Sequence record: SRR31156797_1634
Strand: one strand, 5' to 3'
DNA length: 64,000 nt
Shown here: positions 13,970 to 38,692 of the stretch, in pieces
How the letters are laid out: the number at the start of each line of letters is the position of its first letter
How positions within the stretch are numbered: position 1 is the first letter of the stretch
Notes under the pieces: model-generated
The model's input: only the letters and a program-made list of their open reading frames with translations
The model's database searches: none
What the model was told of the DNA's origin: nothing
Made by a program: the position numbers and the translations under genes

Positions 13970-13984
13970 GGTACACCTGTGCTA

Positions 13985-23649: not shown

Positions 23650-24531
23650 TTGCCCTGCAATTCAAACACATATCCTCCCCTCTTCATAGCTGAAGTATCC
23701 AGCAATCATGGTTGTGATATTGACCGCTGCTATAAATTCATTGATACAGCAGCGCAAATCGGCTGCGGGGCAGCAAAGTTTCAGCTATTCAAAATAAATG
23801 AACTTTTTTCGCCAGAAATACTTACCCACAGCCAAGAACACCGCGATAGAAAGCGCTGGGAATTACCGGAATCCTTTATTCCGCTGATAGCCGAGCGCTG
23901 CCGGAAACAGGGCATAGCTTTTTCCTGCACCCCGTTCTATCTTAAGGCTGTTGATATCCTGACGCCACACGTGGACTTTTTTAAAATCTCCTCCTACGAA
24001 CTGCTCTGGACCGACCTGCTTAAAAAATGTGCCTCCAGCGGCAAGCCCCTGGTACTTTCCACCGGAATGGCAGATATGAGCGAAATAAACTCTGCTGTAA
24101 GCACCCTGCACAAAGCTGGTTGCGTTGACCTGACACTGCTGCACTGTGTATCAGGGTATCCCGCTCCGATTACGCAGGCGAATCTCGCAGCCATGCAGAC
24201 CATGAAAGATAAATTCCATTGCAAAATCGGCTGGTCTGACCATACAGTAAGCGAGGGCGTCATTCAGCGGGCAATCCATAGATATGACGCGCAGGTAATT
24301 GAACTGCATCTCGATCTTGATGAAACTGGGGACGAATACAAATTCGGACATTGCTGGCTGCCGGCACAGACTGAAAGGATGATCAAAAACATCCACGAAG
24401 GCTTGGCTGCTGATGGAGACGGAATCAAAAGTCCGGTGGAAGCGGAATTACCTGACCGCCAGTGGCGAGCCGATCCAGAGGACGGACTGCGTCCCTTGAA
24501 ATCAATCAGAAAAACATGGAAAACAAATTAA
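23650..24531 (+). CDS. N-acetylneuraminate-synthase-family (NeuB-like) protein, short form without SAF domain
   Basis: IAEVSSNH, KFQ, TPF, KISS, LSTGM, LHCVSGYP, GWSDHT, IELH; 293 aa. Confidence 0.88.
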   Translation: MPCNSNTYPPLFIAEVSSNHGCDIDRCYKFIDTAAQIGCGAAKFQLFKINELFSPEILTHSQEHRDRKRWELPESFIPLIAERCRKQGIAFSCTPFYLKAVDILTPHVDFFKISSYELLWTDLLKKCASSGKPLVLSTGMADMSEINSAVSTLHKAGCVDLTLLHCVSGYPAPITQANLAAMQTMKDKFHCKIGWSDHTVSEGVIQRAIHRYDAQVIELHLDLDETGDEYKFGHCWLPAQTERMIKNIHEGLAADGDGIKSPVEAELPDRQWRADPEDGLRPLKSIRKTWKTN

Positions 24532-26061
24532 ATGGCCAATGCAAACAGTAAGATAAAAAATCTTTCAGAACTTGCGGAGATCGCAAAGAAACTGCGCGAA
24601 GACGGCAAACGGATCGTGCTCTGCCACGGTGTCTTCGACCTGTTGCATATCGGACACATCCGCTATTTCAATCAAGCCAAGGAACACGGGGACGTGCTCA
24701 TGGTTACCCTGACCCCGGACCACTATGTAGACAAAGGTCCGGACCGTCCTGCATTTACCGAAATCCTCCGCGCGGAAGCCTTGGCCTCACTAGGTGAGAC
24801 CGATTACGTTGCCATCAATGAGTGGCCCACAGCCGAAAAAACCCTGCGCGCCATCCGCCCACACGTCTATGCCAAGGGAGATGAATTCAAAGACATCGAG
24901 AACGACCCGCTGGGTAAGATCGGCAAGGAAGCTGACGTAGTCCGTGAGATAGGAGCGGAGCTGGTCTTCACCTCTGACATCGTCTACAGCTCTTCCAACC
25001 TGATCAACCGCTACCTAAGCCGAAACAGCGAGGAGCTGGACGAATACTTGAAAATGTTTCGCAACCGTTACCAGTTGGACGATGTGCTCGACCATCTTGA
25101 ACGCATGCAAAACCTCAAGGTACTCATCATCGGAGACACCATCCTTGATGAATACCAAATAGCTTCCGCGCTAGGCAAATCATCCAAAGACCCCATTCTG
25201 GCCTTCAAATACCAATCTCACGAGCTTTATGCAGGTGGGGCACTGGCTGTAGCCAACCACGTAGCCAACTTCGCCGGGGAAGTTACCCTCTTAACCATGC
25301 TCGGAGAGAAGGAGCGCTACGAAGATTTCATCCACGAAAAACTGGATGCCAAAATCAAACCATACTTTTTTACCCGTCCCAATGGCCCGACGACTCTTAA
25401 ACGTAGGTTCGTTGACGGATATTCACTAAACAAGGTCATGGAATTCTACGTCATGGATGATAGCCCGCTACCGGATGATGTAGAACAACAAATCTGCACC
25501 GAGTTGGCCAAAATAATATCTGATCACGACCTCGTGCTGGCAGCCGACTTCGGGCACGGATTGATCAGTCCTGCAGTAGTGGATGTGCTGGTAAGTAAAT
25601 CTCCTTATCTTGCAGTGAACACACAAGCCAATGCCGGAAACCGGGGCTTCAATACCATTGGGAAATATCCACAAATGGATTTTTTCTCGCTGGCTGAGCA
25701 TGAACTACGCCTTGAAACCCGCGACCAAATCAATGAGTTACGCCCCTTACTTATCGAAACCGGAACAAAACTGAACACTAAAATTTGCCTGGTAACACAG
25801 GGGAGTCGGGGCTGTTCACTTTACAATCCGGCCAGCGAATTTGTACGTATCCCCACCTTCCAGTCCAATGTTGTGGACAGGGTAGGTGCCGGGGACGCAC
25901 TATTTTCCATTGCCGCCATGTCTGCCTGCATGGGGTTACATGAAGAACTGGTCGGATTCCTCGGCAATATTGCCGGATCTCTGGCCGTGCAAATCATGGG
26001 CAATGACCGGGCCATAGACAAAGAATCCACGCGCAAATACATAACCGCAACCATGAAATAA
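24532..26061 (+). CDS. Bifunctional cytidylyltransferase-like plus PfkB sugar kinase (HldE-like, reversed domain order)
   Basis: N-terminal HGVFDLLHIGH and YSSS; C-terminal IGDTILDEY, GGA..VANH, DFGHG, DRVGAGD. Confidence 0.88.
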   Translation: MANANSKIKNLSELAEIAKKLREDGKRIVLCHGVFDLLHIGHIRYFNQAKEHGDVLMVTLTPDHYVDKGPDRPAFTEILRAEALASLGETDYVAINEWPTAEKTLRAIRPHVYAKGDEFKDIENDPLGKIGKEADVVREIGAELVFTSDIVYSSSNLINRYLSRNSEELDEYLKMFRNRYQLDDVLDHLERMQNLKVLIIGDTILDEYQIASALGKSSKDPILAFKYQSHELYAGGALAVANHVANFAGEVTLLTMLGEKERYEDFIHEKLDAKIKPYFFTRPNGPTTLKRRFVDGYSLNKVMEFYVMDDSPLPDDVEQQICTELAKIISDHDLVLAADFGHGLISPAVVDVLVSKSPYLAVNTQANAGNRGFNTIGKYPQMDFFSLAEHELRLETRDQINELRPLLIETGTKLNTKICLVTQGSRGCSLYNPASEFVRIPTFQSNVVDRVGAGDALFSIAAMSACMGLHEELVGFLGNIAGSLAVQIMGNDRAIDKESTRKYITATMK

Positions 26062-26063
26062 AA

Positions 26064-27029
26064 ATGAGCAGCAAATACCGCCAATTTGATCGCAGCAGAC
26101 TGAAAATACTTCCCCTTGCAGAACGCAAAAGCCTGATTAATACCGGGATTATCAAAACGGTTCAGCCATGCACCGAAGTTCATCCATCCCTTGAGACTAT
26201 AGCCAAAGAATTAGCTGCAGCCAGAGACAGGAAATCTGCACGGATACTCATGATCGGGGCGCATGTAATTCGTTCCGGGGTTCAGCGCTACCTTTTCGAA
26301 CTTATGGAAAAAGGACTAATCAGCTGCATTGCAGTCAACGGAGCCTGTGCCATCCATGATTTTGAATTCGCTCTCCTTGGACAGACCACAGAATGCGTTG
26401 CCACCTACATTTCCAACGGACAATTCGGCCTCTGGCAGGAAACCGGACTGCTCAACGAAATCATTTCCAAGGGCAATACACAGGGACTTGGCTTCGGTGA
26501 AGCTGTGGGCAAATACATCTGTGAAAACCAACTACCCCATGCTGATATAAGCCTCTTTGCCAAAGCTTATGAACTGGGTATCCCCGTGACCGTACATGCC
26601 GGAATCGGTTACGATATCATCCATGAACATCCAAATTGCGACGGGGCCGCTATAGGGGAGGCCAGCTACCGCGACTTCCTTATTTTTGCCGACCAGCTTG
26701 AGCAGCTTGAGCAAGGTGTGGTCATGAATTTCGGCAGTGCCATCATGGCTCCGGAAATATATCTCAAGGCTCTGGCTATGGTTCGCAATGCGGCTGCAAA
26801 TTCCAACCCTGCAAAGACAATTCGAAATTTCACAACTTTAGTATGCGATTTGCAGGACCTACCCGAACAGGTAAAGAATGAAGCCCCCAAAAGTGATGCC
26901 CAGTACTATTTCAGACCATGGAAGACCATGCTGGTACGTACCGTGGCTGACGGGGGCAAAAGTTATTATGTCCGGGGATTTCACGCCCAGACGATTCCCC
27001 AGCTCTGGTCCGCTGCCGCAGAACTTTAA
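26064..27029 (+). CDS. Conserved hypothetical protein, deoxyhypusine-synthase-like fold (GSU2086-like)
   Basis: GAHVIRSG, NGA..IHDFE, GLGFGEAVG, PVTVH..IGYDIIH.H, GSAIMAPEIYLKAL. Confidence 0.6.
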   Translation: MSSKYRQFDRSRLKILPLAERKSLINTGIIKTVQPCTEVHPSLETIAKELAAARDRKSARILMIGAHVIRSGVQRYLFELMEKGLISCIAVNGACAIHDFEFALLGQTTECVATYISNGQFGLWQETGLLNEIISKGNTQGLGFGEAVGKYICENQLPHADISLFAKAYELGIPVTVHAGIGYDIIHEHPNCDGAAIGEASYRDFLIFADQLEQLEQGVVMNFGSAIMAPEIYLKALAMVRNAAANSNPAKTIRNFTTLVCDLQDLPEQVKNEAPKSDAQYYFRPWKTMLVRTVADGGKSYYVRGFHAQTIPQLWSAAAEL

Positions 27030-27045
27030 GCACCGAGGAAAGACT

Positions 27046-27612
27046 TTGTGGAATAAACACGCGCAAAAATTACAGAACTGCCTTAGCTCCATTGAAGTAA
27101 GTGGGATCGACTGCAGTACACACGGTTGTGATCAAGCTTTTTCTGTATGGAAAGATATGACCGAAAAACTTCGCAAGCAGGGTAATATAATCTACCTCAT
27201 CGGAAACGGAGCCAGTGCGTCCATGGCTAGCCACTTCTCTGCCGACCTTGCAAAAAATGCCCATGTGCATACGCAGGTTTTTACCGATCTGGCACTTATT
27301 ACCGCCCTTGCCAATGACATTTCATATGATCAGGTCTTTGTGGAACCACTGAGACGAAGATTAACATCAAACGACATGCTAGTTGCCATCAGCAGTTCCG
27401 GCAACTCCCCAAACGTACTCAATGCCTGTCGCTTTGCCGCAGAAACCGGAGCTTTAGTGGTCACTCTCAGTGCCATGTCTCCGGAAAACAGTCTGCGTTC
27501 AATCGGTGATCTCAATTTTTGGATACCCGCAGACACATACGGTATGGCTGAAACGGGCCACACCTGCATTCTCCACTACTGGATGGATTCTGTTTCCACT
27601 TCCCCGGCATAA
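27046..27612 (+). CDS. SIS-domain phosphosugar isomerase (GmhA-like)
   Basis: IGNGASASMASHF, TALAND, ISSSGNSPN, YGMAE..H; TTG start at 27046 after GAGGA. Confidence 0.85.
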   Translation: MWNKHAQKLQNCLSSIEVSGIDCSTHGCDQAFSVWKDMTEKLRKQGNIIYLIGNGASASMASHFSADLAKNAHVHTQVFTDLALITALANDISYDQVFVEPLRRRLTSNDMLVAISSSGNSPNVLNACRFAAETGALVVTLSAMSPENSLRSIGDLNFWIPADTYGMAETGHTCILHYWMDSVSTSPA

Positions 27613-27621
27613 GGATTTTTC

Positions 27622-28692
27622 ATGAACGATAATCTACGCATAGATTCCCACAAACTGCACCTGCACCCTAGCCGGGTTGCCAAATGGCTGGCAGGCGAAA
27701 ATATTGGCCCCATTTTTATGGAAGTCAGTCCCAGCGGGGCTTGTAACCACCGTTGCCGCTTCTGCGCCTACGATTTCACAAATTACGTACCCAAATATTT
27801 GGACCTTGAAATATACCGCCGGCGTATTCCCGGAATCGCAGCAACCGGAGTAAAAAGCATCATGTTTTCCGGTGAAGGCGAGCCGTTCATGAACAAAAAT
27901 TTAACTGAAATCTGTCTTGCCACCCTAGATGCTGGAATCGACGTGGGAATCACCACCAATGGCGCGCTCATGCAAGCTGAAAAACTGAGCCCTATGCTGG
28001 ATCGGCTCTCATGGATTAAAATCAGTTGTAACGGACTCAATCCCGGTAATTATGAATCAGTGCATCGTGGGCCTCAAGGCGACTTTGAAAAGGTCATGCG
28101 AAACATTGAAGATGCAGTCTCAATGCGCAATGCTAGCGAATCTAACTGTACTCTTGGTTTGCAGAGCCTCCTTTTACCAGAGAATGCGGGAGAGATGAAG
28201 GAACTGGCTATACACAGCCGTGAAATGGGTCTGGATTACATGGTAGTCAAACCATATTCCCAGCATCCGCTAGGAATAACCAAAGAATTTGAGGGCCTCA
28301 CTTATGAGGAATTCAAAGAACTTGGCCGGGAGTTACGTGGGCTTTCCACTCCTTCATTCACCGTAATTTTCCGAGATAAAGCTATGGACCGTTTGCAGGA
28401 CCAAGAACGCGGCTATGAGCGTTGTTACGCCATGCCCTTCTGGTCTTATATGGACGTGGACTGGAACATCTGGGGGTGCGGAATATACATAGGCGACGAG
28501 CGTTTTCATTATGGCAATCTCGCCGAACAAAGTTTCGAAGAACTTTGGTCCGGGAAAAAACGCATGCAATCCCTCGAATGGTGCAACAGCAAACTTGATC
28601 CATCCTCTTGCCGCGTCAACTGTCGCATGGACAAAGTCAACTCATACTTATGGGAACTGTGCAACCCCGGCGCACACGTTAATTTTATTTAG
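27622..28692 (+). CDS. Radical SAM enzyme with Twitch/SPASM domain
   Basis: CNHRCRFC, FSGEGEP, TTNG; C-terminal CYAMPF...WGC...YGNL...CRVNC. Confidence 0.88.
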   Translation: MNDNLRIDSHKLHLHPSRVAKWLAGENIGPIFMEVSPSGACNHRCRFCAYDFTNYVPKYLDLEIYRRRIPGIAATGVKSIMFSGEGEPFMNKNLTEICLATLDAGIDVGITTNGALMQAEKLSPMLDRLSWIKISCNGLNPGNYESVHRGPQGDFEKVMRNIEDAVSMRNASESNCTLGLQSLLLPENAGEMKELAIHSREMGLDYMVVKPYSQHPLGITKEFEGLTYEEFKELGRELRGLSTPSFTVIFRDKAMDRLQDQERGYERCYAMPFWSYMDVDWNIWGCGIYIGDERFHYGNLAEQSFEELWSGKKRMQSLEWCNSKLDPSSCRVNCRMDKVNSYLWELCNPGAHVNFI

Positions 28693-28706
28693 CAGAGGTA
28701 AAATCT

Positions 28707-29333
28707 GTGAGCGTTGGAATCGACCTCGACAATACTATAATCTGCTACGACAATTCCTTACATGGGATTGCCGTGGAACGAGGTTTAATTCCAAATGACC
28801 TACCTAGAATAAAAAGAATTATTCGAGACACAGTACGCGCAGCACACGGTGATATTGAATGGCAAAAACTACAAATAGCCATTTATGGGACTCACATGGA
28901 TCGTGCAGAATTAATGCCCGGAGTCTGGGAGTTTTTACTTAATTTAAAGGAACGCGGCATAAAGTTTCAAATCGTCAGCCACAAGACCCGCTACCCGAAC
29001 TACGGAGACAACAAAATTGATCTGCGCACAGCAGCACTGAATTTCCTACGCCAGCATAATTTCTTTGCTGAATCAGGATTGGGATTGACTGAAGGTGATG
29101 TTTTCTTCCTGTCCACAAGGGCGGAAAAAATTACGACCATTTGTAAATTAAAATGCTCCCTTTTCATCGATGATCTCAAAGAACTCTATCTCGAACAGGA
29201 TTTCCCGAAACTGAGTGCCAAGATACTTTTCTCTTCAGAACAAAATCTCGATATTTCCGGCGTGACCGTGCTGCCCGATTTTAATCAGATAGATAAATTC
29301 ATTTTTAAGGGGATTGCGGATGGTAAATTCTGA
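28707..29333 (+). CDS. HAD-superfamily phosphatase
   Basis: GIDLDNT motif I, VSHK, FIDD. Confidence 0.75.
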   Translation: MSVGIDLDNTIICYDNSLHGIAVERGLIPNDLPRIKRIIRDTVRAAHGDIEWQKLQIAIYGTHMDRAELMPGVWEFLLNLKERGIKFQIVSHKTRYPNYGDNKIDLRTAALNFLRQHNFFAESGLGLTEGDVFFLSTRAEKITTICKLKCSLFIDDLKELYLEQDFPKLSAKILFSSEQNLDISGVTVLPDFNQIDKFIFKGIADGKF

Positions 29334-30351
29334 CCCTAAAAGACTAATCTGCCGTCTGACCAAAGAGATTCCTGTCAAGTCTGAGCGCATCCGTGCCGGA
29401 CGCAACAGCCGAATTTATCGCGTTAATTGTGAGTCCGGAAAGACCCTGCTGACAAAATTTTACATTCAACCCACGGCTGACGGACGCAGCAGACTTGACC
29501 AGGAATGGACCGCCCTGAAGCTCATGACCGAATCAGGACTCAAGAACATCCCCCGTCCGCTGGAATTCGACGACCCTATTCAGGGAGCAATTTATTCTTT
29601 CATCCCCGGGAATCCTGTTAATGAGACAACAAATCAAGACATTCTGGAAGTTGTCTCATTTCTCGCCAAGCTCAAAGAAATTTCCAGTCTACCGACAGCA
29701 ATAAAACTGCCCCGCGCTGCCGAAGCCTGTTTTTCGCCCACAGAACTGGTGGAAAATATCAGACAGAGGCTTAAAAAATTACAAGCTCTACCCGCAAAAG
29801 ACGAAATCTATCAGCGCATGCATTCATTCCTTGAAAACAGATTCTCTACTGAACTTGAAAGGTGCGCAGACAATGCAAAACAGCATTTCCCCGCTGAATT
29901 ATGGACTGAACCGCTCCCACAGAGGCAGAGAACTCTCAGTCCATCCGATTTTGGGTTCCACAATGCGCTGCGCACTGAAGACGGACTCGCTTTTGTGGAT
30001 TTTGAATATTTCGGCTGGGATGATCCGGTAAAAGCAACTTCGGATTTTTTGCTTCATCCGGCAATGGATTTGCGTACAAGCCAGATAAAATATTTCTTTG
30101 CGGGTATGAAAGAAATTTTTATAAATGATACAAATTTCACCACCCGTTTCAAAATATACCTGCCCCTGTTTCGCTTAAAGTGGTGCATGATCCTGCTAAA
30201 CGAATTTATAAACCACCATCTTGAACGACGGGAATTCGCCAGCGGAGGCGTCGGCTGGCGAGAGGGCCTGCGCGCGCAGCAGCTTGAAAAGACTCAGAAT
30301 TTCCTTAATAAGGATCAAAAGATACTAACCGCACTGAATTTGCGGAATTAA
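29320..30351 (+). CDS. APH/choline-kinase-family phosphotransferase
   Basis: GRNSRIY, SPSDFGFHNAL, FVDFEYFGWDDP. Confidence 0.8.
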   Translation: MVNSDPKRLICRLTKEIPVKSERIRAGRNSRIYRVNCESGKTLLTKFYIQPTADGRSRLDQEWTALKLMTESGLKNIPRPLEFDDPIQGAIYSFIPGNPVNETTNQDILEVVSFLAKLKEISSLPTAIKLPRAAEACFSPTELVENIRQRLKKLQALPAKDEIYQRMHSFLENRFSTELERCADNAKQHFPAELWTEPLPQRQRTLSPSDFGFHNALRTEDGLAFVDFEYFGWDDPVKATSDFLLHPAMDLRTSQIKYFFAGMKEIFINDTNFTTRFKIYLPLFRLKWCMILLNEFINHHLERREFASGGVGWREGLRAQQLEKTQNFLNKDQKILTALNLRN

Positions 30352-30367
30352 TATATCGGAGAAAAAA

Positions 30368-32087: not shown

Positions 32088-32092
32088 AAGTT

Positions 32093-32722: not shown

Positions 32723-32724
32723 TC

Positions 32725-33330
32725 ATGATAAATACTACAGAAAATCCAGAAAAACACTGGAAAAAAATGATCGATGAATTCGGGGACGAGCATGCTCCAC
32801 TAACTCCAAAATTGGCACAGTCATTTGCAAGTGATCCTTATGGCTTAATGGAACAGATTTCATGGTTCAAGTTCGCAGGCAAGATGATCAGCAAAAATCA
32901 ACGCGTACTGGTCTATGATCATCTGGAAGGACTGGGAGGCTGGACCGTAGCTTGTGAAACAGGTCCGGTGGTCGCAGTTCTTGAGGAGCTCGATCCAGTG
33001 GATGAAATCCGCTCTGCATGGCCTGATGATAAAATCATATTTGAAAAACATGATGAGATCCTGCGCTCCGCAAAAGACGAATTTGATGGTCTGGTCCGCT
33101 TTGATCCACATGGCAATATGAACGAAACGCAGTGGGAATCCTTTATTGCAGATAGCGCAAAAATACTGCGCGAAAGTGGTGTTCTCATTGCTGGAAGCAA
33201 AAATGACAAAGAATTCACTTTCATAAAAGCAGCGGCCAAAAAACATTTCAACCACGTTTTCTGTTTCGGTAAGGGACACCCTCATCCACTCATCACCCCG
33301 GCAAATGCAACCATCATTTTGGCCTGTTAA
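32725..33330 (+). CDS. Degenerate methyltransferase-like protein (paralog of upstream gene)
   Basis: DP..L.....F.FA, EGLG, G..I.G, HF.HVF.F align with the 32093 protein; SAM glycine loop altered. Confidence 0.55.
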   Translation: MINTTENPEKHWKKMIDEFGDEHAPLTPKLAQSFASDPYGLMEQISWFKFAGKMISKNQRVLVYDHLEGLGGWTVACETGPVVAVLEELDPVDEIRSAWPDDKIIFEKHDEILRSAKDEFDGLVRFDPHGNMNETQWESFIADSAKILRESGVLIAGSKNDKEFTFIKAAAKKHFNHVFCFGKGHPHPLITPANATIILAC

Positions 33331-33342
33331 GAGGATATCTGT

Positions 33343-34002
33343 ATGAGAAATCTACTAAATCTGGTCACTCCACTGCACACTTCCACTAAACGCGAATATC
33401 TGCCGCGTATGGTTGATGAGAAAGTAGAGTGTATGCTCAAAGCCAAGGAATATGAATTCGATTACTGGGATGGTGACCGCCGCTTTGGATACGGGGGCTA
33501 CCATTATCTTGCAGGCTACTGGACCCCGGTAGCTGAAAACCTGATCGAGACTTACAGACTTGAAAAGGGAGCACGAATTTTGGACGTGGGCTGCGGCAAG
33601 GCTTTCCTGCTTTATGAACTGCATAAGCTGGGTATGGAAGTACACGGCTTTGATATTTCCCGACACGGACTTGAGTGCGCAAAGGATGAAATCAAAGAAA
33701 ACCTGTTCATCCAACGAGCCGAAGAGCCTTTCCCTTATGCTGAGGGCGAATTTGATCTGGTTATCTCCATCAATTCACTGCACAATTTACCCGTATTCAA
33801 TCTCAAGAAAACACTTAACGAAATGGAACGGGTAGGCCGCAATAAATATCTTTGCGTAGAAAGCTTCCGAAATGAACAGGAATTGTTTAACCTCCAATGC
33901 TGGGCCCTGACCTGTGAGTCTTTTTTTAGTAAAGAAGAATGGGAATGGCTTTTCAACGAATTTAACTATTCCGGTGACTACGAATTTATCTACTTCGAAT
34001 AA
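33343..34002 (+). CDS. Class I SAM-dependent methyltransferase (YWDGDRR.GYGGY family)
   Basis: LDVGCGKAF, SINSLHNL, WALTC. Confidence 0.85.
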   Translation: MRNLLNLVTPLHTSTKREYLPRMVDEKVECMLKAKEYEFDYWDGDRRFGYGGYHYLAGYWTPVAENLIETYRLEKGARILDVGCGKAFLLYELHKLGMEVHGFDISRHGLECAKDEIKENLFIQRAEEPFPYAEGEFDLVISINSLHNLPVFNLKKTLNEMERVGRNKYLCVESFRNEQELFNLQCWALTCESFFSKEEWEWLFNEFNYSGDYEFIYFE

Positions 34003-34014
34003 ACGAGGGACGAC

Positions 34015-35082
34015 ATGCAGCTATACACCAACCTTAAAATTTTCCATTACCAGCACAAACTAGACTCACTGCCCCCGGAATCGGAGCAGACTGAAGCGCC
34101 CCTGCACATCCGTATTAAACCTACCAATGCCTGCAACCACAGTTGTACTTACTGCGCCTACCGCAATCCCAACCTGCAACTGGGGCAGGACATGGCCATT
34201 GCTGACCGCATTCCGGCTGCGAAAATGAAAGAAATTGTCAACGACTGCATTGAAATGGGTGTAAAAGCGGTAACTTTCAGCGGCGGAGGCGAACCGCTCT
34301 GCTACCCGCAACTTGCAACTTCTGCCCGCACTTTAGCCGAGGACGGAGTCAGCATCGCCACCCTGACCAATGGCGGTCTGCTGCACGGTGAAGTCGCTGA
34401 AGTTTTTTCCTCCATGGGCACATGGATCAGGATTTCCATGGATGGCTGGGACGGGCCAAGTTATGCTCGTTTTCGTTCCGTGGATAATGATGAATTTTCC
34501 AAGATCATGACCAACATTGAAAATTTCAAAAAACTGGGCGGTAATTGTTTTCTGGGCGTGAGCTATGTGATCAACCGCGACAATGCCGAACATGTTTTTG
34601 CCATGGCTCGTCAGCTTAAAGACGCAGGAGTGGACAGCATCAAATTCTCTGCCTGCGTGGTCAGCAATGACGGACATGAAAACAACCGCTACCACGCACC
34701 CGTATTCGGCAGAATCAAAGAACAAACCCAACGCGCCGTAAGCGAACTCCAAGACAACGGATTCGAAGTCTTTGATGCCTATCACGAACTGGATGAAAAA
34801 TTCTCCAAATCCTATGAGTGGTGCCCGTATCAACAGATACTCCCGGTAATTGGGGCGGATCAGCGTGTCTACTCCTGTCAGGATAAGGCCTACAATCTTG
34901 ATTGCGGTGTTCTTGGCTCCATCAAGGACGTGCGCTTCAAGGATTTCTGGTTCAATAATCGCGATAAATTCTTCAAGATCAATCCCGCAGAACATTGCAA
35001 CCACCATTGCGTTTCCAATGGCAAGAACATGCTGGTTCACGATTACCTGAATGCCAATCCAGACCATCTACCCTTTGTTTAA
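34015..35082 (+). CDS. Radical SAM enzyme with Twitch/SPASM domain
   Basis: CNHSCTYC, FSGGGEP, LTNG; C-terminal CPYQQ...YSC...LGSI...CNHHC. Confidence 0.88.
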   Translation: MQLYTNLKIFHYQHKLDSLPPESEQTEAPLHIRIKPTNACNHSCTYCAYRNPNLQLGQDMAIADRIPAAKMKEIVNDCIEMGVKAVTFSGGGEPLCYPQLATSARTLAEDGVSIATLTNGGLLHGEVAEVFSSMGTWIRISMDGWDGPSYARFRSVDNDEFSKIMTNIENFKKLGGNCFLGVSYVINRDNAEHVFAMARQLKDAGVDSIKFSACVVSNDGHENNRYHAPVFGRIKEQTQRAVSELQDNGFEVFDAYHELDEKFSKSYEWCPYQQILPVIGADQRVYSCQDKAYNLDCGVLGSIKDVRFKDFWFNNRDKFFKINPAEHCNHHCVSNGKNMLVHDYLNANPDHLPFV

Positions 35083-35097
35083 CGGGTGCAAGACTCC

Positions 35098-37038
35098 ATG
35101 AAAATTTTGGTTATCGGAGACGGTGCGCTGGGCAAGGCAATCGCGCAGCAAATAAAAAAACGCGGACACAAAATATCACAGACTTCGCGCAAGAATTCGC
35201 AACTTATTCCTTTAGAATTGAAAAATGAACACGAGTTCACCAATCTTCCAAGCGCGAATTGGGCTGTTATTGCCGCAGGAATTTCCGGTTACAAAGAATG
35301 TGCTGATTACCCTGAATCGCGAGAGATTAATGTAGACCGCACAATTGAACTCTGCCGGTTTCTGCTCAGCCGGGGAACCAAAATTCTATTCCCTTCCAGC
35401 ACAGCTGTCTTTGACGGAGAAAAAAAATTTCCAAGACCAAACACTCTCACCTGCCCTGCTACGGAATATGGTCGCCAGAAAGCAGAAGTGGAAAATTTTC
35501 TAGGTCAGTACCCTGATCAGACCGCCATCGTGCGTCTGACCAAACTTCTGGATCACAACACACTGCTCGTTGCCGGCTGGTTGAAAAATCTCGCTGCCGG
35601 ACAAGAAATCACTCCATTCAAAGACCTGACCATCGCCCCTGTGCTCTTTGAAGATGCGGCCTTTGCCTGCTGTAAGATCATGGAAAATGGTAATAGCGGG
35701 ATATTTCATTGTTCAAGCCCACAAGAAATCAACTACCTTGAATTCGGACGGATGCTCTGCGAGCAATCAGGGTTTGATTCCGAACTTATCAAGCCTGCCA
35801 GCTGCAAAGGATTTCTTGACTACTGCCCAGTTCATTGCGGCCTTGATTCAAGTTCCACCGAACAACTAATCCAATTCAAATTTCCCGATCCAGAGCAGGT
35901 CATCGCAAAACTGCTGCAACCCCGCTGCCTGCTCTGCGGAAGTCTCAATCTGTATCACTTTGATAAATTTAAAGATTTTCCAGGGATAACTTCGGACTGC
36001 AAGCCATGGCCGCGTTCCGGGGAGTTCATGCTCTGCAGGGAATGCGGGCACCCTCAGAAAAGACTTTCCGCGCAATGGTTCAAGGACATCAACGAAATCT
36101 ATTCCGGGTATGAGATGTATCCCTTAAGCTCGGGCAATGAGCCACTCATCTTTGATGAAAAGGGTGAAGGCTGTCCACGTAGTGGTGTTCTGCTAGGCAA
36201 ACTCATTCCTGCACTTTCTCTACCCGAAGAAGGAAACGTGCTGGATGTGGGCTGCGGCAACGGGAGCCTGCTGCAACAGTTTCATCTACGCCGCCCCGGA
36301 TGGAAGTTATACGGACATGAGCAATCGGCCCAACGTGAAGAAATTCTGCATCTTCCCGGAGTTCATGGTTTCTATTCCGGACCGCTATCAAATATTGATC
36401 GCAAATTCGACCTGATCACCATGACCTACGTCATTGAGCACCTGACTGATCCGCTGGACGTGCTCAAGCAACTTACCGGACTGCTCCGCGAGGGCGGACG
36501 AATCATGGTCCATACCTCATCTTTTGAGGACAATCCATTTGACCTCATGGTCTGTGATCACTGTTCTCACTTCACCCCGGGAACACTGCAATTTCTGGCA
36601 GCAGAGGCCGGACTTAAAATAACCGGGCGTACCGATCCATGGCTGGCTAAAGAAATCGGCTTCATCGCCCTCAAAGGTCCACACCAGCATACCCCGGCCC
36701 GAATTACCAAAAATCTGCAAAGCATGACAGACTCACTCAGTTGGCTGGATCAACTAGCCTGCAAAACACAGCAGGCCAGCGTAAAACAAGAAGTGGGAAT
36801 CTTCGGCACTGCCGTAGCGGGGACATGGCTGGCGGCCTCCCTTGAAAAGACATCCTTTTATGTTGATGAAGACCCGTCCAGACAAGGCCAGACTCACATG
36901 AGTTTGCCTATCATCGGCCCTGCTCAAGTTCCGCAGGGAGCGGCGGTAATCATGGGATTCAACAAAGAATTGGGAACACGTATTGCCGAGCGACTGAATG
37001 GTTGCTATCCCCAAATAAATTTCATTATCCCGGACTGA
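35098..37038 (+). CDS. RmlD-like NDP-sugar reductase fused to Zn-binding C-methyltransferase-like module
   Basis: IGDGALG, SSTAVFDG, YGRQK; CLLC...CREC; LDVGCGNG, VIEH; IFGT..AG...YVDED; GTG 35086 is an alternative start. Confidence 0.75.
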   Translation: MKILVIGDGALGKAIAQQIKKRGHKISQTSRKNSQLIPLELKNEHEFTNLPSANWAVIAAGISGYKECADYPESREINVDRTIELCRFLLSRGTKILFPSSTAVFDGEKKFPRPNTLTCPATEYGRQKAEVENFLGQYPDQTAIVRLTKLLDHNTLLVAGWLKNLAAGQEITPFKDLTIAPVLFEDAAFACCKIMENGNSGIFHCSSPQEINYLEFGRMLCEQSGFDSELIKPASCKGFLDYCPVHCGLDSSSTEQLIQFKFPDPEQVIAKLLQPRCLLCGSLNLYHFDKFKDFPGITSDCKPWPRSGEFMLCRECGHPQKRLSAQWFKDINEIYSGYEMYPLSSGNEPLIFDEKGEGCPRSGVLLGKLIPALSLPEEGNVLDVGCGNGSLLQQFHLRRPGWKLYGHEQSAQREEILHLPGVHGFYSGPLSNIDRKFDLITMTYVIEHLTDPLDVLKQLTGLLREGGRIMVHTSSFEDNPFDLMVCDHCSHFTPGTLQFLAAEAGLKITGRTDPWLAKEIGFIALKGPHQHTPARITKNLQSMTDSLSWLDQLACKTQQASVKQEVGIFGTAVAGTWLAASLEKTSFYVDEDPSRQGQTHMSLPIIGPAQVPQGAAVIMGFNKELGTRIAERLNGCYPQINFIIPD

Positions 37039-37063
37039 TACCTCCCACTTACAAGGAATACTT

Positions 37064-38650
37064 ATGAGCACTGACACTCTTTTAGATAATACAACCCCAT
37101 TTACGGTAAATGGGAAGAACACCATGCAGCACGCCTATAACTCCGCTGACATGGACGCTTTTCCCTGCGAAAAATTTACACTGGGTAAAGAGCAACGAAC
37201 AAAAGAAAAAATATTCTTCCACTGTAATATGGTCGTTTTCGGGGATGAATATACGTCTACCTTTGTAAAAGATGTGCTGCCCACCCAACTCGGACCGGAT
37301 AATATTGAGGCCCTCAATTCAGAAGCTCGTTCGATATACGTTTTCTACACCACCCCCGAAGATCTCCCAACCATAAAGGAATCCCCCGCCTTTGCAGAGC
37401 TTGCCCAAATCATGGACATACGAATTCATATCATTGATTATGAGCACATAAGCAGTGCTAACAAATACAATTTCATGATTCAAAGTCATAAGCACTCCAT
37501 TCGCAAGGCACATGAGGAAGGAGCCAGAGCTTTGTTTCTTGCTCCTGATCTAATATTTCCGAAATGCGCATTCCGCAACTTATACCGCAGAACAGCTGAA
37601 GGGCATAAGGCGATTATGATCGGGACCATGAGAGTGACCAAAGAAGAATTCCTGCCGAAAATGCATGAACTATTCTTTGCTGATAACGATATAGCAGCCC
37701 CTATTGCGGCCCGTGCTTTGGTAGATTTAGTTATTGATAATTTACATCCCGACACCCGCAACTCAATCATAGGATCATCAAGAAGCACTGGATGGCCATC
37801 ACAATTGTTATGGGAAATTCCCGGTGAAGGTATTCTTGCACGAAATTTTCACCTGCAGCCAATCATGGTTTACCCAGTAGAACTCAACGAATTTAACGGA
37901 ACAGTGGATGACGATTGCGTCCGCAAAATATGCAAAAACATTGAAGACGTTTACATCACCCATGATTCTGACGAAATAGCCGCTTTCGACCTCAGTAAAA
38001 AGGATATCAGAACCATTGAACAGGATAAGCCTTTCAACATTGAGTACGCCGCAGCATGGGCGGATGACCATGCAGATGAATTTCACCGCCAGTTTGTGGA
38101 ACATGAAATCCGCTTCCATAACGGTAAATCCGGCCCGCTGTGGACTAAACTTTCAGAAAACGCAGCTGAAGTGGTGGACGCAATTAAAAACCACTCGCCC
38201 AGTGAAGAAGAACACTTCTTTCCTAAAGTTTTGCTGGATTACGATCTGCGCTTTCCTCCTCTTAAAATCGATTCGCCCTGCATTAATAACAATATTGAAC
38301 AGAAAGAACCGGACACAAGAATTACGCCGCCCCACTTAGAAGAAACAAAAACTGACATCCCCGGTCCGGAGGAAACCCGGTTCTGCCTGTCGCCATGGAA
38401 CTCCCCTCATGTCACGCCCTGCGGGGATGTGTATTCCTGCCGCATACGCCAAGAAGTTATGAGCCGAACAGATGAGAACACATCGCTCAGAAAGGCCATG
38501 CACAGTGCATCATTTACTGAACTGCGCAAGCAGCTTATCACTGGAAACATCAAAGACCCCGCCTGCCGAAACTGTCCCATCGCTCCCGTTCGCCCATTAC
38601 GCGATTTGAAACGCTCAATAGCTGATATGATCCGCGCCAGCATAAAATAA
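37064..38650 (+). CDS. Hypothetical protein (possible GT-A-like domain) with C-terminal SPASM-like domain
   Basis: VVFGDEY, LAPDLIF; C-terminal CLSPW...GDVYSC...CRNC; no CxxxCxxC. Confidence 0.55.
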   Translation: MSTDTLLDNTTPFTVNGKNTMQHAYNSADMDAFPCEKFTLGKEQRTKEKIFFHCNMVVFGDEYTSTFVKDVLPTQLGPDNIEALNSEARSIYVFYTTPEDLPTIKESPAFAELAQIMDIRIHIIDYEHISSANKYNFMIQSHKHSIRKAHEEGARALFLAPDLIFPKCAFRNLYRRTAEGHKAIMIGTMRVTKEEFLPKMHELFFADNDIAAPIAARALVDLVIDNLHPDTRNSIIGSSRSTGWPSQLLWEIPGEGILARNFHLQPIMVYPVELNEFNGTVDDDCVRKICKNIEDVYITHDSDEIAAFDLSKKDIRTIEQDKPFNIEYAAAWADDHADEFHRQFVEHEIRFHNGKSGPLWTKLSENAAEVVDAIKNHSPSEEEHFFPKVLLDYDLRFPPLKIDSPCINNNIEQKEPDTRITPPHLEETKTDIPGPEETRFCLSPWNSPHVTPCGDVYSCRIRQEVMSRTDENTSLRKAMHSASFTELRKQLITGNIKDPACRNCPIAPVRPLRDLKRSIADMIRASIK

Positions 38651-38660
38651 TCGCAATAAA

Positions 38661-38692
38661 AAAGACCTGCTTTTCTTAAAAAGCAGGTCTTT
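38661..38692. terminator. Intrinsic terminator between convergent genes, probably bidirectional
   Basis: AAAGACCTGCTTTT-CTTA-AAAAGCAGGTCTTT perfect 14-bp stem with A/T flanks. Confidence 0.8.

What the first reader, a model, noticed from the sequence alone, without database searches (positions are those of the whole stretch)
23650..38650. 15-gene operon that may build an undescribed higher-carbon, radical-SAM-tailored nucleotide sugar
Seen: one tightly packed, co-oriented unit between a TTGACT-N17-TAGTCT promoter and a strong terminator. It encodes a NeuB-like synthase, HIGH-nucleotidyltransferase/PfkB kinase, DHS-like unknown, GmhA-like isomerase, HAD phosphatase, APH-type kinase, split transketolase, two Twitch radical SAM enzymes, several methyltransferases and a reductase-methyltransferase fusion. 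Known: isomerase-kinase-phosphatase-nucleotidyltransferase is the logic of NDP-heptose synthesis (GmhA/HldE/GmhB) and of the lincosamide GDP-octose route, where a dedicated transaldolase makes the ketose phosphate. Inference: a dedicated transketolase may supply a C7/C8 ketose phosphate or add a C2 branch; the sugar is then activated, radically modified and methylated, and possibly extended with PEP by the NeuB-like enzyme. I know of no characterised pathway with this combination.
Basis: partly seen in the sequence, partly recalled or inferred. Interest (0 to 1): 0.85.

Follow-up and report, generated by a model that had tools for sequence, protein, structure and literature searches.

The report
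Uncharacterised heptose-type nucleotide-sugar tailoring operon
This is a real 15-gene operon in a sulfate-reducing bacterium that most likely builds and heavily remodels an activated seven-carbon-type sugar for a surface glycan. Its core gene set recurs from bacteria to archaea but has never been worked out biochemically.

Summary
The promoter is only a weak string match. The terminator hairpin is real.

The operon is not a one-off. A search anchored on the DHS-fold gene (GSU2086 family) found a co-oriented core. It comprises a reversed HldE-like nucleotidyltransferase/kinase, GSU2086, a SIS isomerase, radical SAM 1, a ThDP enzyme pair, a methyltransferase and radical SAM 2. It recurs in Desulfovibrio, Thermodesulfobacteriota, Nitrospirae, Planctomycetota and archaea.

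- GSU2086 domains occur fused to isomerase, kinase, phosphatase or nucleotidyltransferase domains. I therefore read it as an unrecognised fifth enzyme of an NDP-heptose-type route.
- The split transketolase slot holds E1 alpha/beta pairs or YerE-type ThDP enzymes in other lineages. This favours C2 transfer onto the sugar over substrate supply.
- NeuB, the reductase-methyltransferase and the last gene (GT-A-like) are lineage-specific.

No characterised pathway was found (nine literature searches). The nearest precedent is Coxiella CBU0678, a reversed HldE essential for O-antigen whose function is unknown. The product is unknown.

The parts
23577..23605 (+). promoter-like string TTGACT-N17-TAGTCT, 45 nt before g1
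   Evidence: Read. The -10 element matches the consensus at 3 of 6 positions. The scan did not call it. Function unproven.
23650..24531 (+). g1: short NeuB-family PEP-condensing synthase (293 aa, no SAF/antifreeze-like C-terminal domain)
   Evidence: PF03102 207 bits. It scores below the NeuB and PseI equivalog cutoffs, 183 against 400 and 167 against 340. The best solved relative is 6ncs, a 290-aa short NeuB. It aligns with 1xuu, keeping E15, K43, K112, E117, H198 and H219. Which of these are catalytic is recalled, not tested.
24532..26061 (+). g2: bifunctional HldC-like nucleotidyltransferase (N-terminal) / HldA-like PfkB sugar kinase (C-terminal), the reverse of E. coli HldE order
   Evidence: Residues 5-159 match HldE positions 319-469, and residues 189-494 match rfaE domain I. 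All scores are below the equivalog cutoffs (145 against 521, 113 against 345, 90 against 181). The HxGH motif is present and there is no STTR5 motif.
26064..27029 (+). g3: GSU2086-family protein with a deoxyhypusine-synthase-like (DHS/LOR-SDH/ArgZ-C) fold; the anchor of the conserved module; function unknown
   Evidence: NF052581 392 bits against a 250 cutoff. AF2 pLDDT 88. Foldseek to DHS, 3c2q and ArgZ/AgrE at TM about 0.5 and 12-17% identity. Identity across phyla is 55-60%. Fusions to SIS, PfkB, HAD, NT and DUF89 domains were seen.
27046..27612 (+). g4: SIS-domain sugar-phosphate isomerase, GmhA-like (start probably TTG 27046, 188 aa)
   Evidence: SIS_2 54.7 bits. gmhA models score 64-69 bits against cutoffs of 209-276. 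Start choice.
27622..28692 (+). g5: radical SAM enzyme 1 with a C-terminal Cys cluster
   Evidence: PF04055 64 bits. CxxxCxxC at residues 41-48. The nearest solved proteins are DesII (1e-10), BlsE and viperins, all of which act on nucleotide or nucleotide-sugar substrates.
28707..29333 (+). g6: HAD-like hydrolase (putative phosphatase or mutase), always paired with g7
   Evidence: No HMM hit. DLDNT and FIDD motifs are visible in the sequence. It forms a family with 10 other loci, and it is fused to the APH kinase in 4 loci. No similarity to GmhB of L041.
29314..30351 (+). g7: APH/choline-kinase-fold small-molecule kinase
   Evidence: PF01636 28.5 bits against a 23.2 cutoff. No solved relative at E below 0.1. 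DFGFHN and DFEY motifs are visible in the sequence.
30368..31174 (+). g8: split transketolase, ThDP-binding N-terminal subunit
   Evidence: PF00456 158.6 bits. GDG-x-N motif at residue 139. 48% identical to a second copy at 1765-2595.
31155..32087 (+). g9: split transketolase, pyrimidine-binding/C-terminal subunit (scores as well to Dxs as to transketolase)
   Evidence: PF02779 and PF02780. TIGR00204 dxs 188.7 bits against transketolase 176.6 bits.
32093..32722 (+). g10: class I SAM methyltransferase (lineage-specific)
   Evidence: Methyltransf_23/25/11. Its family is found in 4 of 81.
32698..33330 (+). g11: unknown, possibly a divergent class I methyltransferase
   Evidence: No HMM hit. Language-model look-alikes at 0.95 are all methyltransferases (a lead only). 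A homologue was found only in L001.
33343..34002 (+). g12: class I SAM methyltransferase 'MT2', conserved partner of g13
   Evidence: Methyltransf_31 75.5 bits. 56-68% identical across phyla and adjacent to rSAM2.
34015..35082 (+). g13: radical SAM enzyme 2 with a C-terminal Cys cluster
   Evidence: PF04055 75 bits. CxxxCxxC at residues 40-47. 23% identical to g5. The nearest solved proteins are anSME, MoaA and BlsE.
35086..37038 (+). g14: fusion of an RmlD-like NDP-4-keto-sugar reductase domain, a Zn ribbon and a Methyltransf_23 domain
   Evidence: The methyltransferase part aligns at 26% (E 3e-7) with a Methyltransf_13/23/14 sugar C-methyltransferase-type protein of L041.
37064..38650 (+). 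g15: unknown 528-aa protein. The N-terminal roughly 390 aa are GT-A glycosyltransferase-like and the C-terminus is SPASM-like and Cys-rich. It lacks the radical SAM core that longer relatives carry.
   Evidence: SPASM 22 bits. There are 15 homologues, nearly all in the Maridesulfovibrio group, and most are 760-870 aa with TPR, rSAM and SPASM domains. AF2 pLDDT 78.5. The top Foldseek hits are all GT-A transferases, but TM is only 0.2-0.33.
38661..38692 (.). 14-bp-stem hairpin, probable bidirectional terminator
   Evidence: called on the - strand. Sequence read. A sub-threshold Rfam hit falls here only.
20614..23410 (-). context: divergently transcribed phosphomannomutase and ManC (GDP-mannose supply)
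12878..14914 (+). context: GDP-mannose 4,6-dehydratase and GDP-fucose-synthase-like SDR in the upstream glycan operon

Best explanation
The operon makes a tailored nucleotide-activated sugar of the heptose type for a surface glycan.

Core route (inferred from family resemblance, fusions and synteny):
- The SIS isomerase g4 converts a ketose phosphate (sedoheptulose 7-phosphate or a close analogue) to the aldose phosphate.
- The PfkB domain of g2 phosphorylates O-1.
- A phosphatase removes the distal phosphate. In this operon the only candidate is the HAD g6.
- The N-terminal domain of g2 makes the NDP-sugar.
- g3 (GSU2086 family, DHS fold) is a fifth, obligatory enzyme of this route. Every solved look-alike uses NAD+ for transient oxidation. 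I therefore infer a redox-neutral epimerase/isomerase, or a keto-forming step, on the heptose scaffold.

Tailoring (inferred):
- Radical SAM 1, which resembles DesII, BlsE and viperin, and/or g3 create a carbonyl or deoxy centre without oxygen.
- The split transketolase g8/g9 transfers a two-carbon ketol unit onto that carbonyl. The result is a C2 branch, or a C9 chain if the carbonyl is at C-7.
- The g6/g7 HAD-kinase pair serves this ThDP step.
- MT2 (g12) with radical SAM 2 (g13), g10, g11 and the methyltransferase domain of g14 methylate the sugar. The RmlD-like domain of g14 reduces the remaining ketone.
- g15 (GT-A-like) or the glycosyltransferases upstream install the sugar.

The role of g1 (short NeuB) is open.

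Shown here: gene content, conserved synteny and domain fusions. Inferred: every chemical step.
For: Gene content.

Widespread conserved module:
- 589 relatives of g3 were confirmed in the species-genome collection, and the best 80 were examined.
- Among the 80 loci plus the window, families were counted as follows: NT-PfkB 49, SIS 40, rSAM1 28, MT2 24, TKn 20, TKc 20, rSAM2 15, HAD 11, APH 10, NeuB 8. Many loci are cut by contig ends, so these are lower bounds.
- Of 41 loci with at least 3 kb upstream and 8 kb downstream, 39 have a PfkB kinase beside g3: 32 fused to the nucleotidyltransferase and 7 alone.
- The full ten-gene core lies in window order in L001, L005, L055 and L070, that is Desulfovibrio, Thermodesulfobacteriota, Nitrospirae and Desulfarculaceae.
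- A variant occurs in archaea (L025, L041 Methanoperedens). In L041 it sits with a Wzx-type flippase, a bona fide GmhB (199 bits against a 178 cutoff) and a TalC/FSA aldolase.

Fusions of the GSU2086 domain: to nucleotidyltransferase (P0137, P0197, P0223), SIS (P0139, P0169), HAD (P0140, P0143, P0189), PfkB (P0163), and DUF89 phosphatase plus nucleotidyltransferase (P0183, P0235).

Genetics: Geobacter hldE, GSU2086 and gmhA share a Tn-seq phenotype with LPS genes (PMC5585712, one passage).

The ThDP slot:
- Of 39 loci with NT-PfkB and at least 8 kb downstream, 21 have the transketolase pair, 9 have an E1 alpha/beta pair, 0 have both and 9 have neither.
- Three of those nine carry a YerE/ALS-type ThDP enzyme in the same position.
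- E1-like AviB1/B2 and Pau11/12, and YerE, are the described two-carbon-branch enzymes (PMC4425429, passages).

Keto-sugar logic: enzymes that use a keto sugar are present, namely the RmlD-like domain, a C-methyltransferase-type domain and, in relatives, DegT aminotransferases. The operon has no SDR 4,6-dehydratase.

Glycan context: ManC, PMM, gmd, fcl and several glycosyltransferases lie upstream.
Against: - No step has biochemical support.
- g2 and g4 score far below the HldE and GmhA equivalog cutoffs, so the substrate need not be a manno-heptose.
- No GmhB-like phosphatase is in the operon, and g6 shows no similarity to GmhB.
- Classical transketolases accept aldehydes, not ketones. A housekeeping-like supply role cannot be excluded.
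- The transketolase/E1 exclusivity count ignores shared ancestry. L062 and L080 carry both an E1 pair and an ALS-type gene.
- Minimal loci in Acidobacteria and Gemmataceae have only HAD, GSU2086 and PfkB, with no nucleotidyltransferase or isomerase nearby. The g3 step may therefore act on a sugar phosphate rather than on an NDP-sugar.
- The fold match of g3 to DHS is modest (TM about 0.5, 12-17% identity), and NAD binding was not tested.
- The fused proteins are gene predictions from metagenomes. Some could be calling errors.
- The GT-A assignment of g15 rests on TM 0.2-0.33.
Confidence: 0.55

Rival explanations
1. The dedicated transketolase builds an unusual C7/C8 ketose phosphate from central sugar phosphates. 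That sugar is then isomerised, phosphorylated, dephosphorylated and activated, as in the lincosamide GDP-octose pathway. The NeuB-like enzyme then extends it with PEP to a still longer ulosonic acid.
For: Isomerase, kinase, HAD, nucleotidyltransferase and transketolase are all present. The archaeal locus L041 carries a TalC/FSA-type aldolase beside GmhB and the module, which recalls the lincosamide transaldolase. g1 keeps the NeuB residues that align with the solved enzyme and is the first gene of the operon.
Against: The transketolase lies among the tailoring genes, after radical SAM 1. Other lineages replace it with E1-like or YerE-type enzymes, which use pyruvate-type donors and do not make ketose phosphates. 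Core modules without any ThDP enzyme exist, for example Geobacteraceae L078 and the minimal loci. NeuB is in 8 of 81 loci and elsewhere travels with a CMP-sugar synthetase gene. No transaldolase domain is in the window operon.
Confidence: 0.15
2. The block is two or three independent pathways that happen to be co-transcribed in a glycan island. These would be an ordinary ADP/NDP-heptose supply (g2-g4), a nonulosonate-like step (g1), and unrelated tailoring of GDP-mannose-derived 6-deoxy sugars by the radical SAM, methyltransferase and reductase genes. The keto sugar for the last would come from gmd upstream.
For: ManC, PMM, gmd and fcl lie upstream. Gmd is found in 5 of the 41 well-covered loci. 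In Coxiella the reversed HldE sits in a region with ManC, Gmd, an Fcl-like gene and a TylCIII-like C-methyltransferase, where GDP-4-keto-6-deoxymannose is the proposed virenose precursor. Minimal GSU2086 modules exist without tailoring genes.
Against: The heptose-type core and the rSAM/ThDP/MT2 genes stay adjacent and co-oriented across phyla and in archaea, mostly without gmd. Gene gaps of -25 to +25 nt indicate translational coupling. g2 and g4 are not equivalogs of the LPS-core enzymes.
Confidence: 0.2
3. The product is a small secreted or intracellular natural product, for example a nucleoside or cyclitol-type metabolite, rather than a glycan building block.
For: Radical SAM, ThDP and multiple methyltransferase genes are typical of secondary metabolism. 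No classical glycosyltransferase HMM hit falls within the 15 genes.
Against: The flanks here are rich in glycosyltransferases. L041 has a Wzx flippase, and other loci carry GT1/GT2 genes. g15 looks GT-A-like. The Geobacter orthologues behave like LPS genes.
Confidence: 0.07

Closest known systems
[quoted passage not shown]
   Same: SIS isomerase, PfkB-type kinase and HxGH nucleotidyltransferase are the best family matches of g4 and g2. A bona fide GmhB sits in the archaeal version of the module. Geobacter orthologues give LPS-type phenotypes.
   Different: The domain order of g2 is reversed. All scores are far below the equivalog cutoffs. There is no GmhB-like gene in the operon. An extra obligatory DHS-fold enzyme is present. 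Radical SAM, ThDP and methyltransferase tailoring genes are attached. No STTR5 motif is present.
Coxiella burnetii CBU0678, the reversed-domain HldE-like protein of the virenose/O-antigen region
   Same: It has the same unconventional order, nucleotidyltransferase first and kinase second. It lies in an O-antigen locus with a phosphoheptose isomerase, ManC, Gmd, an Fcl-like gene and methyltransferases. It is essential for full-length LPS and virenose, and its biochemical function is stated to be unknown (PMC5843353 passages; PMC13552124 passages; PMC13252051 section 7). Its closest orthologues are reported in Alpha-, Delta/Epsilon-proteobacteria and Planctomycetes (PMC5423948 passages).
   Different: Orthology with g2 was not tested by sequence here. 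The papers' passages do not mention them.
Two-carbon-branched sugar pathways: YerE (yersiniose), AviB1/AviB2 (eurekanate), Pau11/Pau12 (paulomycose)
   Same: A ThDP enzyme is embedded in a nucleotide-sugar tailoring cluster. In sister loci the slot of g8/g9 is held by E1 alpha/beta-like pairs or a YerE/ALS-type enzyme (PMC4425429 passages).
   Different: Here the enzyme is a split transketolase, which has no described role in sugar branching. Its donor would be a ketose or hydroxypyruvate (a glycolaldehyde unit) rather than pyruvate. The sugar scaffold is heptose-type, not a 3,6-dideoxy or 2,6-dideoxy hexose. No SDR 4,6-dehydratase is in the operon.
Lincosamide GDP-octose route (transaldolase, isomerase, kinase, phosphatase, nucleotidyltransferase); recalled from knowledge and from the finding, no paper read
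   Same: The same isomerase-kinase-phosphatase-nucleotidyltransferase logic follows a C-C bond-forming step on sugar phosphates. A TalC/FSA aldolase is present in L041.
   Different: No transaldolase is in the window operon. The ThDP enzyme appears to act late rather than early.
NeuB/PseI/LegI nonulosonate synthases
   Same: g1 has the NeuB TIM-barrel domain, and the residues aligned to the solved enzyme are kept.
   Different: It has no SAF/antifreeze-like domain and scores below the equivalog cutoffs. No CMP-sugar synthetase gene was found among the 49 window ORFs scanned.

Membership tests
ADP-heptose pathway (GmhA/HldE/GmhB) | GmhA equivalog (sedoheptulose-7-P isomerase) | tested here: not met
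   g4 scores 64-69 bits against gmhA models whose cutoffs are 209-276. Only the SIS fold is shared.
ADP-heptose pathway (GmhA/HldE/GmhB) | HldE: kinase domain N-terminal, adenylyltransferase C-terminal, equivalog score | tested here: not met
   In g2 the nucleotidyltransferase is at residues 5-159 and the kinase at 189-494, so the order is reversed. Scores are 145 against 521, 113 against 345 and 90 against 181.
ADP-heptose pathway (GmhA/HldE/GmhB) | GmhB-type HAD-IIIA 7-phosphatase | tested here: not met
   None of the 15 ORFs matches GmhB models. g6 shows no similarity to the bona fide GmhB of L041. A copy elsewhere in the genome cannot be excluded.
ADP-heptose pathway (GmhA/HldE/GmhB) | Product is an NDP-glycero-manno-heptose | not testable with these tools
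   This needs an enzyme assay or LC-MS.
GSU2086 family (NCBIfam NF052581) | Score above the curated cutoff over the full length | tested here: met
   g3 scores 392.5 bits against a 250 cutoff, covering profile positions 1-300 of 301.
Deoxyhypusine synthase / LOR-SDH / ArgZ-C NAD-dependent enzymes | DHS-like Rossmann fold | tested here: met
   Foldseek probability 1.0 and TM 0.48-0.54 to 7cmc, 3c2q, 6juy and 1dhs.
Deoxyhypusine synthase / LOR-SDH / ArgZ-C NAD-dependent enzymes | Sequence membership, NAD binding and amine substrate | tested here: inconclusive
   Only 31 bits to ArgZ-like_C_2nd over 94 residues and 12-17% identity. Cofactor binding was not tested.
NeuB-type nonulosonate synthase | NeuB TIM-barrel domain with conserved metal/PEP residues | tested here: met
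   PF03102 207 bits. The alignment to 1xuu keeps E, K, K, E, H and H. The residue roles are recalled.
NeuB-type nonulosonate synthase | C-terminal SAF/antifreeze-like domain and equivalog score | tested here: not met
   At 293 aa the match ends near profile position 273 of 329. Scores are 183 against 400 and 167 against 340.
NeuB-type nonulosonate synthase | Partner CMP-sugar synthetase (CTP_transf_3) | tested here: not met
   None was found among the 49 window ORFs scanned. It is present beside NeuB-like genes in L015, L022, L024, L030 and L032.
Transketolase | N, pyrimidine-binding and C domains with the ThDP motif | tested here: met
   g8 has PF00456 and GDG..N. g9 has PF02779 and PF02780. 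The pair is split into two genes.
Transketolase | Pentose-phosphate-pathway activity | not testable with these tools
   Scores are below the full-length equivalog cutoffs because the gene is split. Substitution of this slot by E1 and ALS types in other loci argues for another role.
ThDP-dependent two-carbon branching systems (YerE; AviB1/B2) | ThDP enzyme of the ALS/YerE or E1 alpha/beta family | tested here: not met
   The window has a transketolase-type pair instead. The E1 and ALS types occur in sister loci.
ThDP-dependent two-carbon branching systems (YerE; AviB1/B2) | NDP-keto-sugar acceptor made by a 4,6-dehydratase | tested here: not met
   No SDR dehydratase is in the operon. gmd lies 10 kb upstream in another operon.
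Radical SAM (SPASM/Twitch subgroup) | CxxxCxxC and the radical SAM core | tested here: met
   g5 and g13.
Radical SAM (SPASM/Twitch subgroup) | Recognised auxiliary-cluster domain | tested here: inconclusive
   g5 SPASM scores 20.1 bits against a 21.5 cutoff. g13 N_Twi_rSAM scores 38 against 170. C-terminal Cys residues are present.
Reversed-domain HldE of the Coxiella O-antigen region (CBU0678 type) | Nucleotidyltransferase-then-kinase order within an O-antigen-type locus | tested here: met
   g2 order. Locus context. Description of CBU0678.
Reversed-domain HldE of the Coxiella O-antigen region (CBU0678 type) | Sequence orthology | not tested
   No sequence of that protein was fetched.

The most novel reading that the evidence does not exclude
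The GSU2086-family DHS-fold protein is a missing fifth enzyme of an alternative, anaerobe-adapted NDP-heptose pathway shared by bacteria and archaea. In this operon that pathway feeds radical-SAM- and ThDP-dependent chemistry, which extends or branches the heptose by two carbons and methylates it. The product would be a higher-carbon or branched sugar whose structure has not been described. It would also be the first use of a transketolase as a nucleotide-sugar tailoring carboligase.
Probability: 0.35. Interest if true: 0.8.

Novelty: new variant of a known kind. Interest (0 to 1): 0.66.

Why it matters
Heptose-nucleotide enzymes were recently found to be spread across bacteria, archaea, viruses and eukaryotes. 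The commentary I read says their physiological roles outside LPS are unknown, and it suggests looking at conserved neighbours (PMC11573728, passages). This operon and its relatives define such a neighbourhood.

- They point to a highly conserved enzyme of unknown reaction (55-60% identity across domains) that is genetically welded to every step of the heptose route.
- They show three unrelated ThDP enzyme families converging on one tailoring slot.
- They contain two conserved radical SAM enzymes that probably do oxygen-independent sugar redox chemistry.

Solving the pathway would add a new reaction to nucleotide-sugar biochemistry. It would explain a gene that behaves like an LPS gene in Geobacter. 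It would also give a biochemical handle on a reversed HldE whose function is still called unknown in an O-antigen locus of a pathogen.

Tried and rejected
- Promoter. The scan did not call the proposed site, and promoter-like sites are at chance level. I keep it only as a string.
- RNA elements. No riboswitch or other Rfam family was found in 22500-39500 at E up to 0.1, apart from a sub-threshold hit on the terminator hairpin. The window has no tRNA.
- Literature. I ran nine searches. 'GSU2086' returned one Tn-seq paper. Transketolase + radical SAM + heptose + gene cluster + nucleotidyltransferase returned nothing relevant. 'Deoxyhypusine synthase' + heptose returned 0 papers. 'Split transketolase' + polysaccharide returned 0 papers. 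Transketolase + radical SAM + O-antigen + methyltransferase + sugar returned one irrelevant paper. The others were. None describes this gene combination. Subscription journals and supplements were not searched.
- A paper listing the ORFs of the Coxiella deletion region (PMC132984) is not held.
- Language-model look-alikes for g15 gave only unnamed clusters at 0.82-0.83.
- g7 has no solved relative at a useful E-value.
- g6 against GmhB-type and HAD296-type phosphatases showed no meaningful similarity. I therefore cannot call g6 the GmhB equivalent.
- An ordinary LPS-core ADP-heptose operon was considered and rejected as the whole explanation. The scores are below equivalog cutoffs, the module occurs in archaea, and the tailoring genes are attached.
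- I did not run complex prediction, because I make no binding claim.
- My greedy longest-ORF gene calls for GC-rich loci picked some antisense ORFs. For example, family 3 is the antisense of GSU2086. I ignored these.

Full report
**What is there.** The window comes from a Maridesulfovibrio-like sulfate reducer; the best hits of gene 3 are 85-89% identical to Maridesulfovibrio/Desulfovibrio sp. proteins. Between 23650 and 38650 lie fifteen + strand ORFs separated by -25 to +25 nt. This assumes gene 4 starts at TTG 27046, which removes a 150-nt overlap with gene 3.

- a short NeuB (g1);
- a nucleotidyltransferase/PfkB kinase fusion (g2);
- a GSU2086-family protein (g3);
- a SIS isomerase (g4);
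- two radical SAM enzymes (g5, g13);
- an APH-fold kinase (g7);
- a split transketolase (g8/g9);
- class I methyltransferases (g10, g12);
- an RmlD-like reductase fused to a Zn ribbon and a methyltransferase (g14).

Three genes are less clear. g6 has no HMM hit and is HAD-like only by its DLDNT and FIDD motifs. g11 is a methyltransferase only by a language-model lead. g15 is new to the description. Its homologues are almost confined to the Maridesulfovibrio group, and most are 760-870 aa with TPR, radical SAM and SPASM parts. The window's 528-aa form keeps only the N-terminal domain and a Cys-rich tail. The AF2 model (pLDDT 78.5) finds only GT-A glycosyltransferases at the top of the PDB search, with low TM of 0.2-0.33.

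**Boundaries.** The TTGACT-N17-TAGTCT string is at 23577-23605, but it is weak and the scan did not call it; promoter-like sites are at chance level. A 14-bp hairpin at 38661-38692 follows the last stop codon. No riboswitch or tRNA is present. Upstream, ManC and phosphomannomutase are transcribed divergently. Beyond them is a 20-kb + strand glycan operon with gmd, fcl, several glycosyltransferases and a second SDR plus split transketolase set.

**Is it more than a chance neighbourhood?** I aligned g3 with 14 relatives and scanned one genome per species. 589 stretches encode a relative, and the best 80 loci were kept.

tblastn with the 15 window proteins and an all-against-all ORF clustering of the 80 loci plus the window give the same picture. 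The family counts out of 81 are lower bounds, because many contigs are short:
- GSU2086: 79
- NT-PfkB: 49
- SIS: 40
- radical SAM 1: 28
- MT2: 24
- each transketolase subunit: 20
- a lone HldC-like nucleotidyltransferase: 20
- radical SAM 2: 15
- a lone PfkB kinase: 15
- each subunit of an E1 alpha/beta pair: 13
- HAD g6 type: 11
- APH: 10
- NeuB: 8

Of the 41 loci with at least 3 kb upstream and 8 kb downstream, 39 have a PfkB kinase next to GSU2086.

Four arrangements recur:
- Type I: GSU2086, NT, NT/PfkB, SIS, SDR, DegT, DegT, E1a, E1b, rSAM1.
- Type II: GSU2086, NT, NT/PfkB, SIS, rSAM1, (rSAM2), TKn, TKc, MT2, rSAM2. This type includes the archaeal loci L025 and L041.
- Type III: the window's type, with HAD and APH before the transketolase. 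The full ten-gene core is present in L001, L005, L055 and L070.
- Type IV: a minimal HAD, GSU2086, PfkB unit in Acidobacteria, Gemmataceae and Armatimonadetes.

The window's g1, g10, g11, g14 and g15 are lineage-specific additions.

**The DHS-like protein.**
- g3 folds with confidence (pLDDT 88).
- It resembles deoxyhypusine synthases, the LOR/SDH protein 3c2q and the ornithine-cyclodeaminase domain of ArgZ/AgrE, at TM about 0.5 and 12-17% identity.
- It is 55-60% identical between Desulfovibrio, Planctomycetota, Nitrospirae and archaea.
- A full HMMER search of 1.84 billion representatives finds 2105 clusters at E up to 1e-3 and 409 at E up to 1e-30.
- Among the longer hits, the GSU2086 domain is fused to a nucleotidyltransferase (P0137, P0197, P0223), a SIS domain (P0139, P0169), a HAD (P0140, P0143, P0189), a PfkB kinase (P0163), or a DUF89 phosphatase plus nucleotidyltransferase (P0183, P0235).

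Those partners are exactly the four activities of NDP-heptose synthesis as summarised in PMC11573728 (passages). In Methanoperedens locus L041 the neighbouring HAD is a bona fide GmhB (199 bits against a 178 cutoff) beside a TalC/FSA aldolase and a Wzx-type flippase. In Geobacter sulfurreducens, hldE, GSU2086 and gmhA are adjacent and share a Tn-seq phenotype with LPS genes (PMC5585712, one passage).

I conclude that GSU2086 is a fifth component of a heptose-type route. Its reaction is unknown. Its solved look-alikes use NAD+ for transient oxidation, so a redox-neutral epimerase/isomerase or a keto-forming step is my inference. The minimal loci lack a nucleotidyltransferase nearby, so the substrate may be a sugar phosphate rather than an NDP-sugar.

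**The transketolase.** Among 39 loci with NT-PfkB and at least 8 kb downstream, 21 have the split transketolase, 9 have an E1 alpha/beta-like pair, none has both and 9 have neither. The hypergeometric P for zero overlap is 2e-4, ignoring shared ancestry. I then looked at the 'neither' group. In L010, L018 and L007 an 864-aa YerE/acetolactate-synthase-type ThDP enzyme sits between radical SAM 1 and MT2-rSAM2. L062 and L080 carry that type in addition to an E1 pair, so the classes are not strictly exclusive.

E1-like AviB1/AviB2 and Pau11/Pau12, and the ThDP flavoprotein YerE, are the described mechanisms for attaching a two-carbon chain to a keto sugar (PMC4425429, passages). Three ThDP families in one slot, placed among tailoring genes, favours a carboligation on the pathway sugar. 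If the carbonyl is a C-7 aldehyde, it would instead be a C2 extension to a nonose. No transketolase has been described in such a role in what I searched.

**Where the carbonyl comes from.** The operon and its relatives carry enzymes that need a keto sugar. These are the RmlD-like reductase, a Zn-ribbon/Methyltransf_23 domain that aligns with C-methyltransferase-type proteins, and DegT aminotransferases in type I loci. The operon has no SDR 4,6-dehydratase. The nearest solved relatives of radical SAM 1 are DesII, BlsE and viperins, which all act on nucleotides or nucleotide sugars. I infer that g5 and/or g3 generate the reactive centre anaerobically.

The HAD and APH genes are always adjacent, directly precede the transketolase, and are fused in four loci. 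They probably prepare or recycle a phosphorylated partner of the ThDP step. This is the weakest part of the model.

**NeuB.** g1 keeps the residues that align with the active site of the solved Neisseria enzyme (the residue roles are recalled). It lacks the SAF domain and scores below the equivalog cutoffs. It is outside the conserved core, and in L015, L022, L024, L030 and L032 NeuB-like genes lie beside a CTP_transf_3 synthetase. No such synthetase is among the 49 window ORFs scanned. PEP extension of the heptose-derived sugar is therefore possible but unsupported.

**Comparison with the known.** The core works like the ADP-heptose pathway but fails its membership tests: reversed domain order, sub-cutoff scores and no GmhB.

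The closest printed precedent is Coxiella burnetii CBU0678.
- It is described as having an 'unconventional, reversed domain arrangement'.
- It is essential for phase I LPS and virenose production, and its function is stated to be unknown.
- It lies in a region with a phosphoheptose isomerase, ManC, Gmd, an Fcl-like gene and a TylCIII-like methyltransferase.
- Sources: PMC5843353 passages, PMC13552124 passages, PMC13252051 section 7, PMC3539893 passages.
- Its closest orthologues were reported in Alpha-, Delta/Epsilon-proteobacteria and Planctomycetes (PMC5423948 passages).

I did not test orthology by sequence. I also could not check whether that locus has a GSU2086 relative.

**Novelty and verdict.** This is a real, conserved and biochemically uncharacterised variant of nucleotide-sugar biosynthesis. 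It is a new variant of a known kind rather than a new category. Its interest lies in three points: a very conserved unknown enzyme tied to every heptose-pathway step, convergent recruitment of three ThDP enzyme families, and its spread into archaea. The final product, the nucleotide used and every reaction remain inferred. Supplements of the cited papers and subscription-only literature were not examined and could hold relevant gene tables.

Noticed in passing
window 1-20617 (+ strand): A second long glycan operon. It holds a methyltransferase, SDR, a second split transketolase (1765-3524; 48% and 36% identical to g8 and g9), an unknown 514-aa protein, a methyltransferase, an ATP-grasp ligase (LAL_C2), a GH57-like protein, a BNR protein, GT2, gmd, fcl, an unknown 422-aa protein, GT1 and GT2-TPR. 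An SDR plus transketolase sub-module also appears next to the ThDP slot in some related loci (for example L061).
   Followed up: partly
window 52440-63275 (+ strand): A lipid-type cluster: FabG-like SDR, two ketoacyl synthases, an FAD amine-oxidase-type oxidoreductase, an acyltransferase, a radical SAM/SPASM protein, a LolA-like protein and an MMPL transporter. It resembles aryl-polyene or unusual outer-membrane-lipid loci. It is not linked to the finding.
   Followed up: no
proteins P0183 and P0235: Tri-domain proteins: DUF89/ARMT1 'damage-control' phosphatase, then HldC-like nucleotidyltransferase, then GSU2086 domain. This suggests DUF89 can replace the HAD phosphatase of the heptose-type route.
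   Followed up: no
L010:13832-16426, L018, L007: The YerE/ALS-type ThDP enzyme in the Phycisphaerae loci has an extra N-terminal region of about 260 aa with no Pfam match.
   Followed up: no
window 37064-38650 versus P0121-P0133: g15 looks like a natural truncation or fusion variant. Most relatives carry TPR, the same N-domain, and a full radical SAM/SPASM enzyme. The window and P0126 keep only the N-domain and a Cys-rich tail.
   Followed up: partly
L064, L069, L074, L075, L079, L060: Minimal three-gene units (296-aa HAD, GSU2086, lone PfkB kinase with an N-terminal extension) occur in Acidobacteria, Gemmataceae and Armatimonadetes. No isomerase or nucleotidyltransferase is nearby. This does not fit a simple 'acts on the NDP-sugar' reading.
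   Followed up: partly
window 26064-27029 (alignment A1): In 15 sequences g3 has invariant H178, D184 and H187-E188-x-P190-N191, with H189, C192 and D193 nearly invariant (90% or more). This stretch is next to the only low-confidence loop of the model (residues 181-183). It may be a metal or active-site loop.
   Followed up: no
L078:13679-14553: An MqsR/MqsA-type toxin-antitoxin pair lies directly after the Geobacteraceae GSU2086, HldE-like, SIS module.
   Followed up: no
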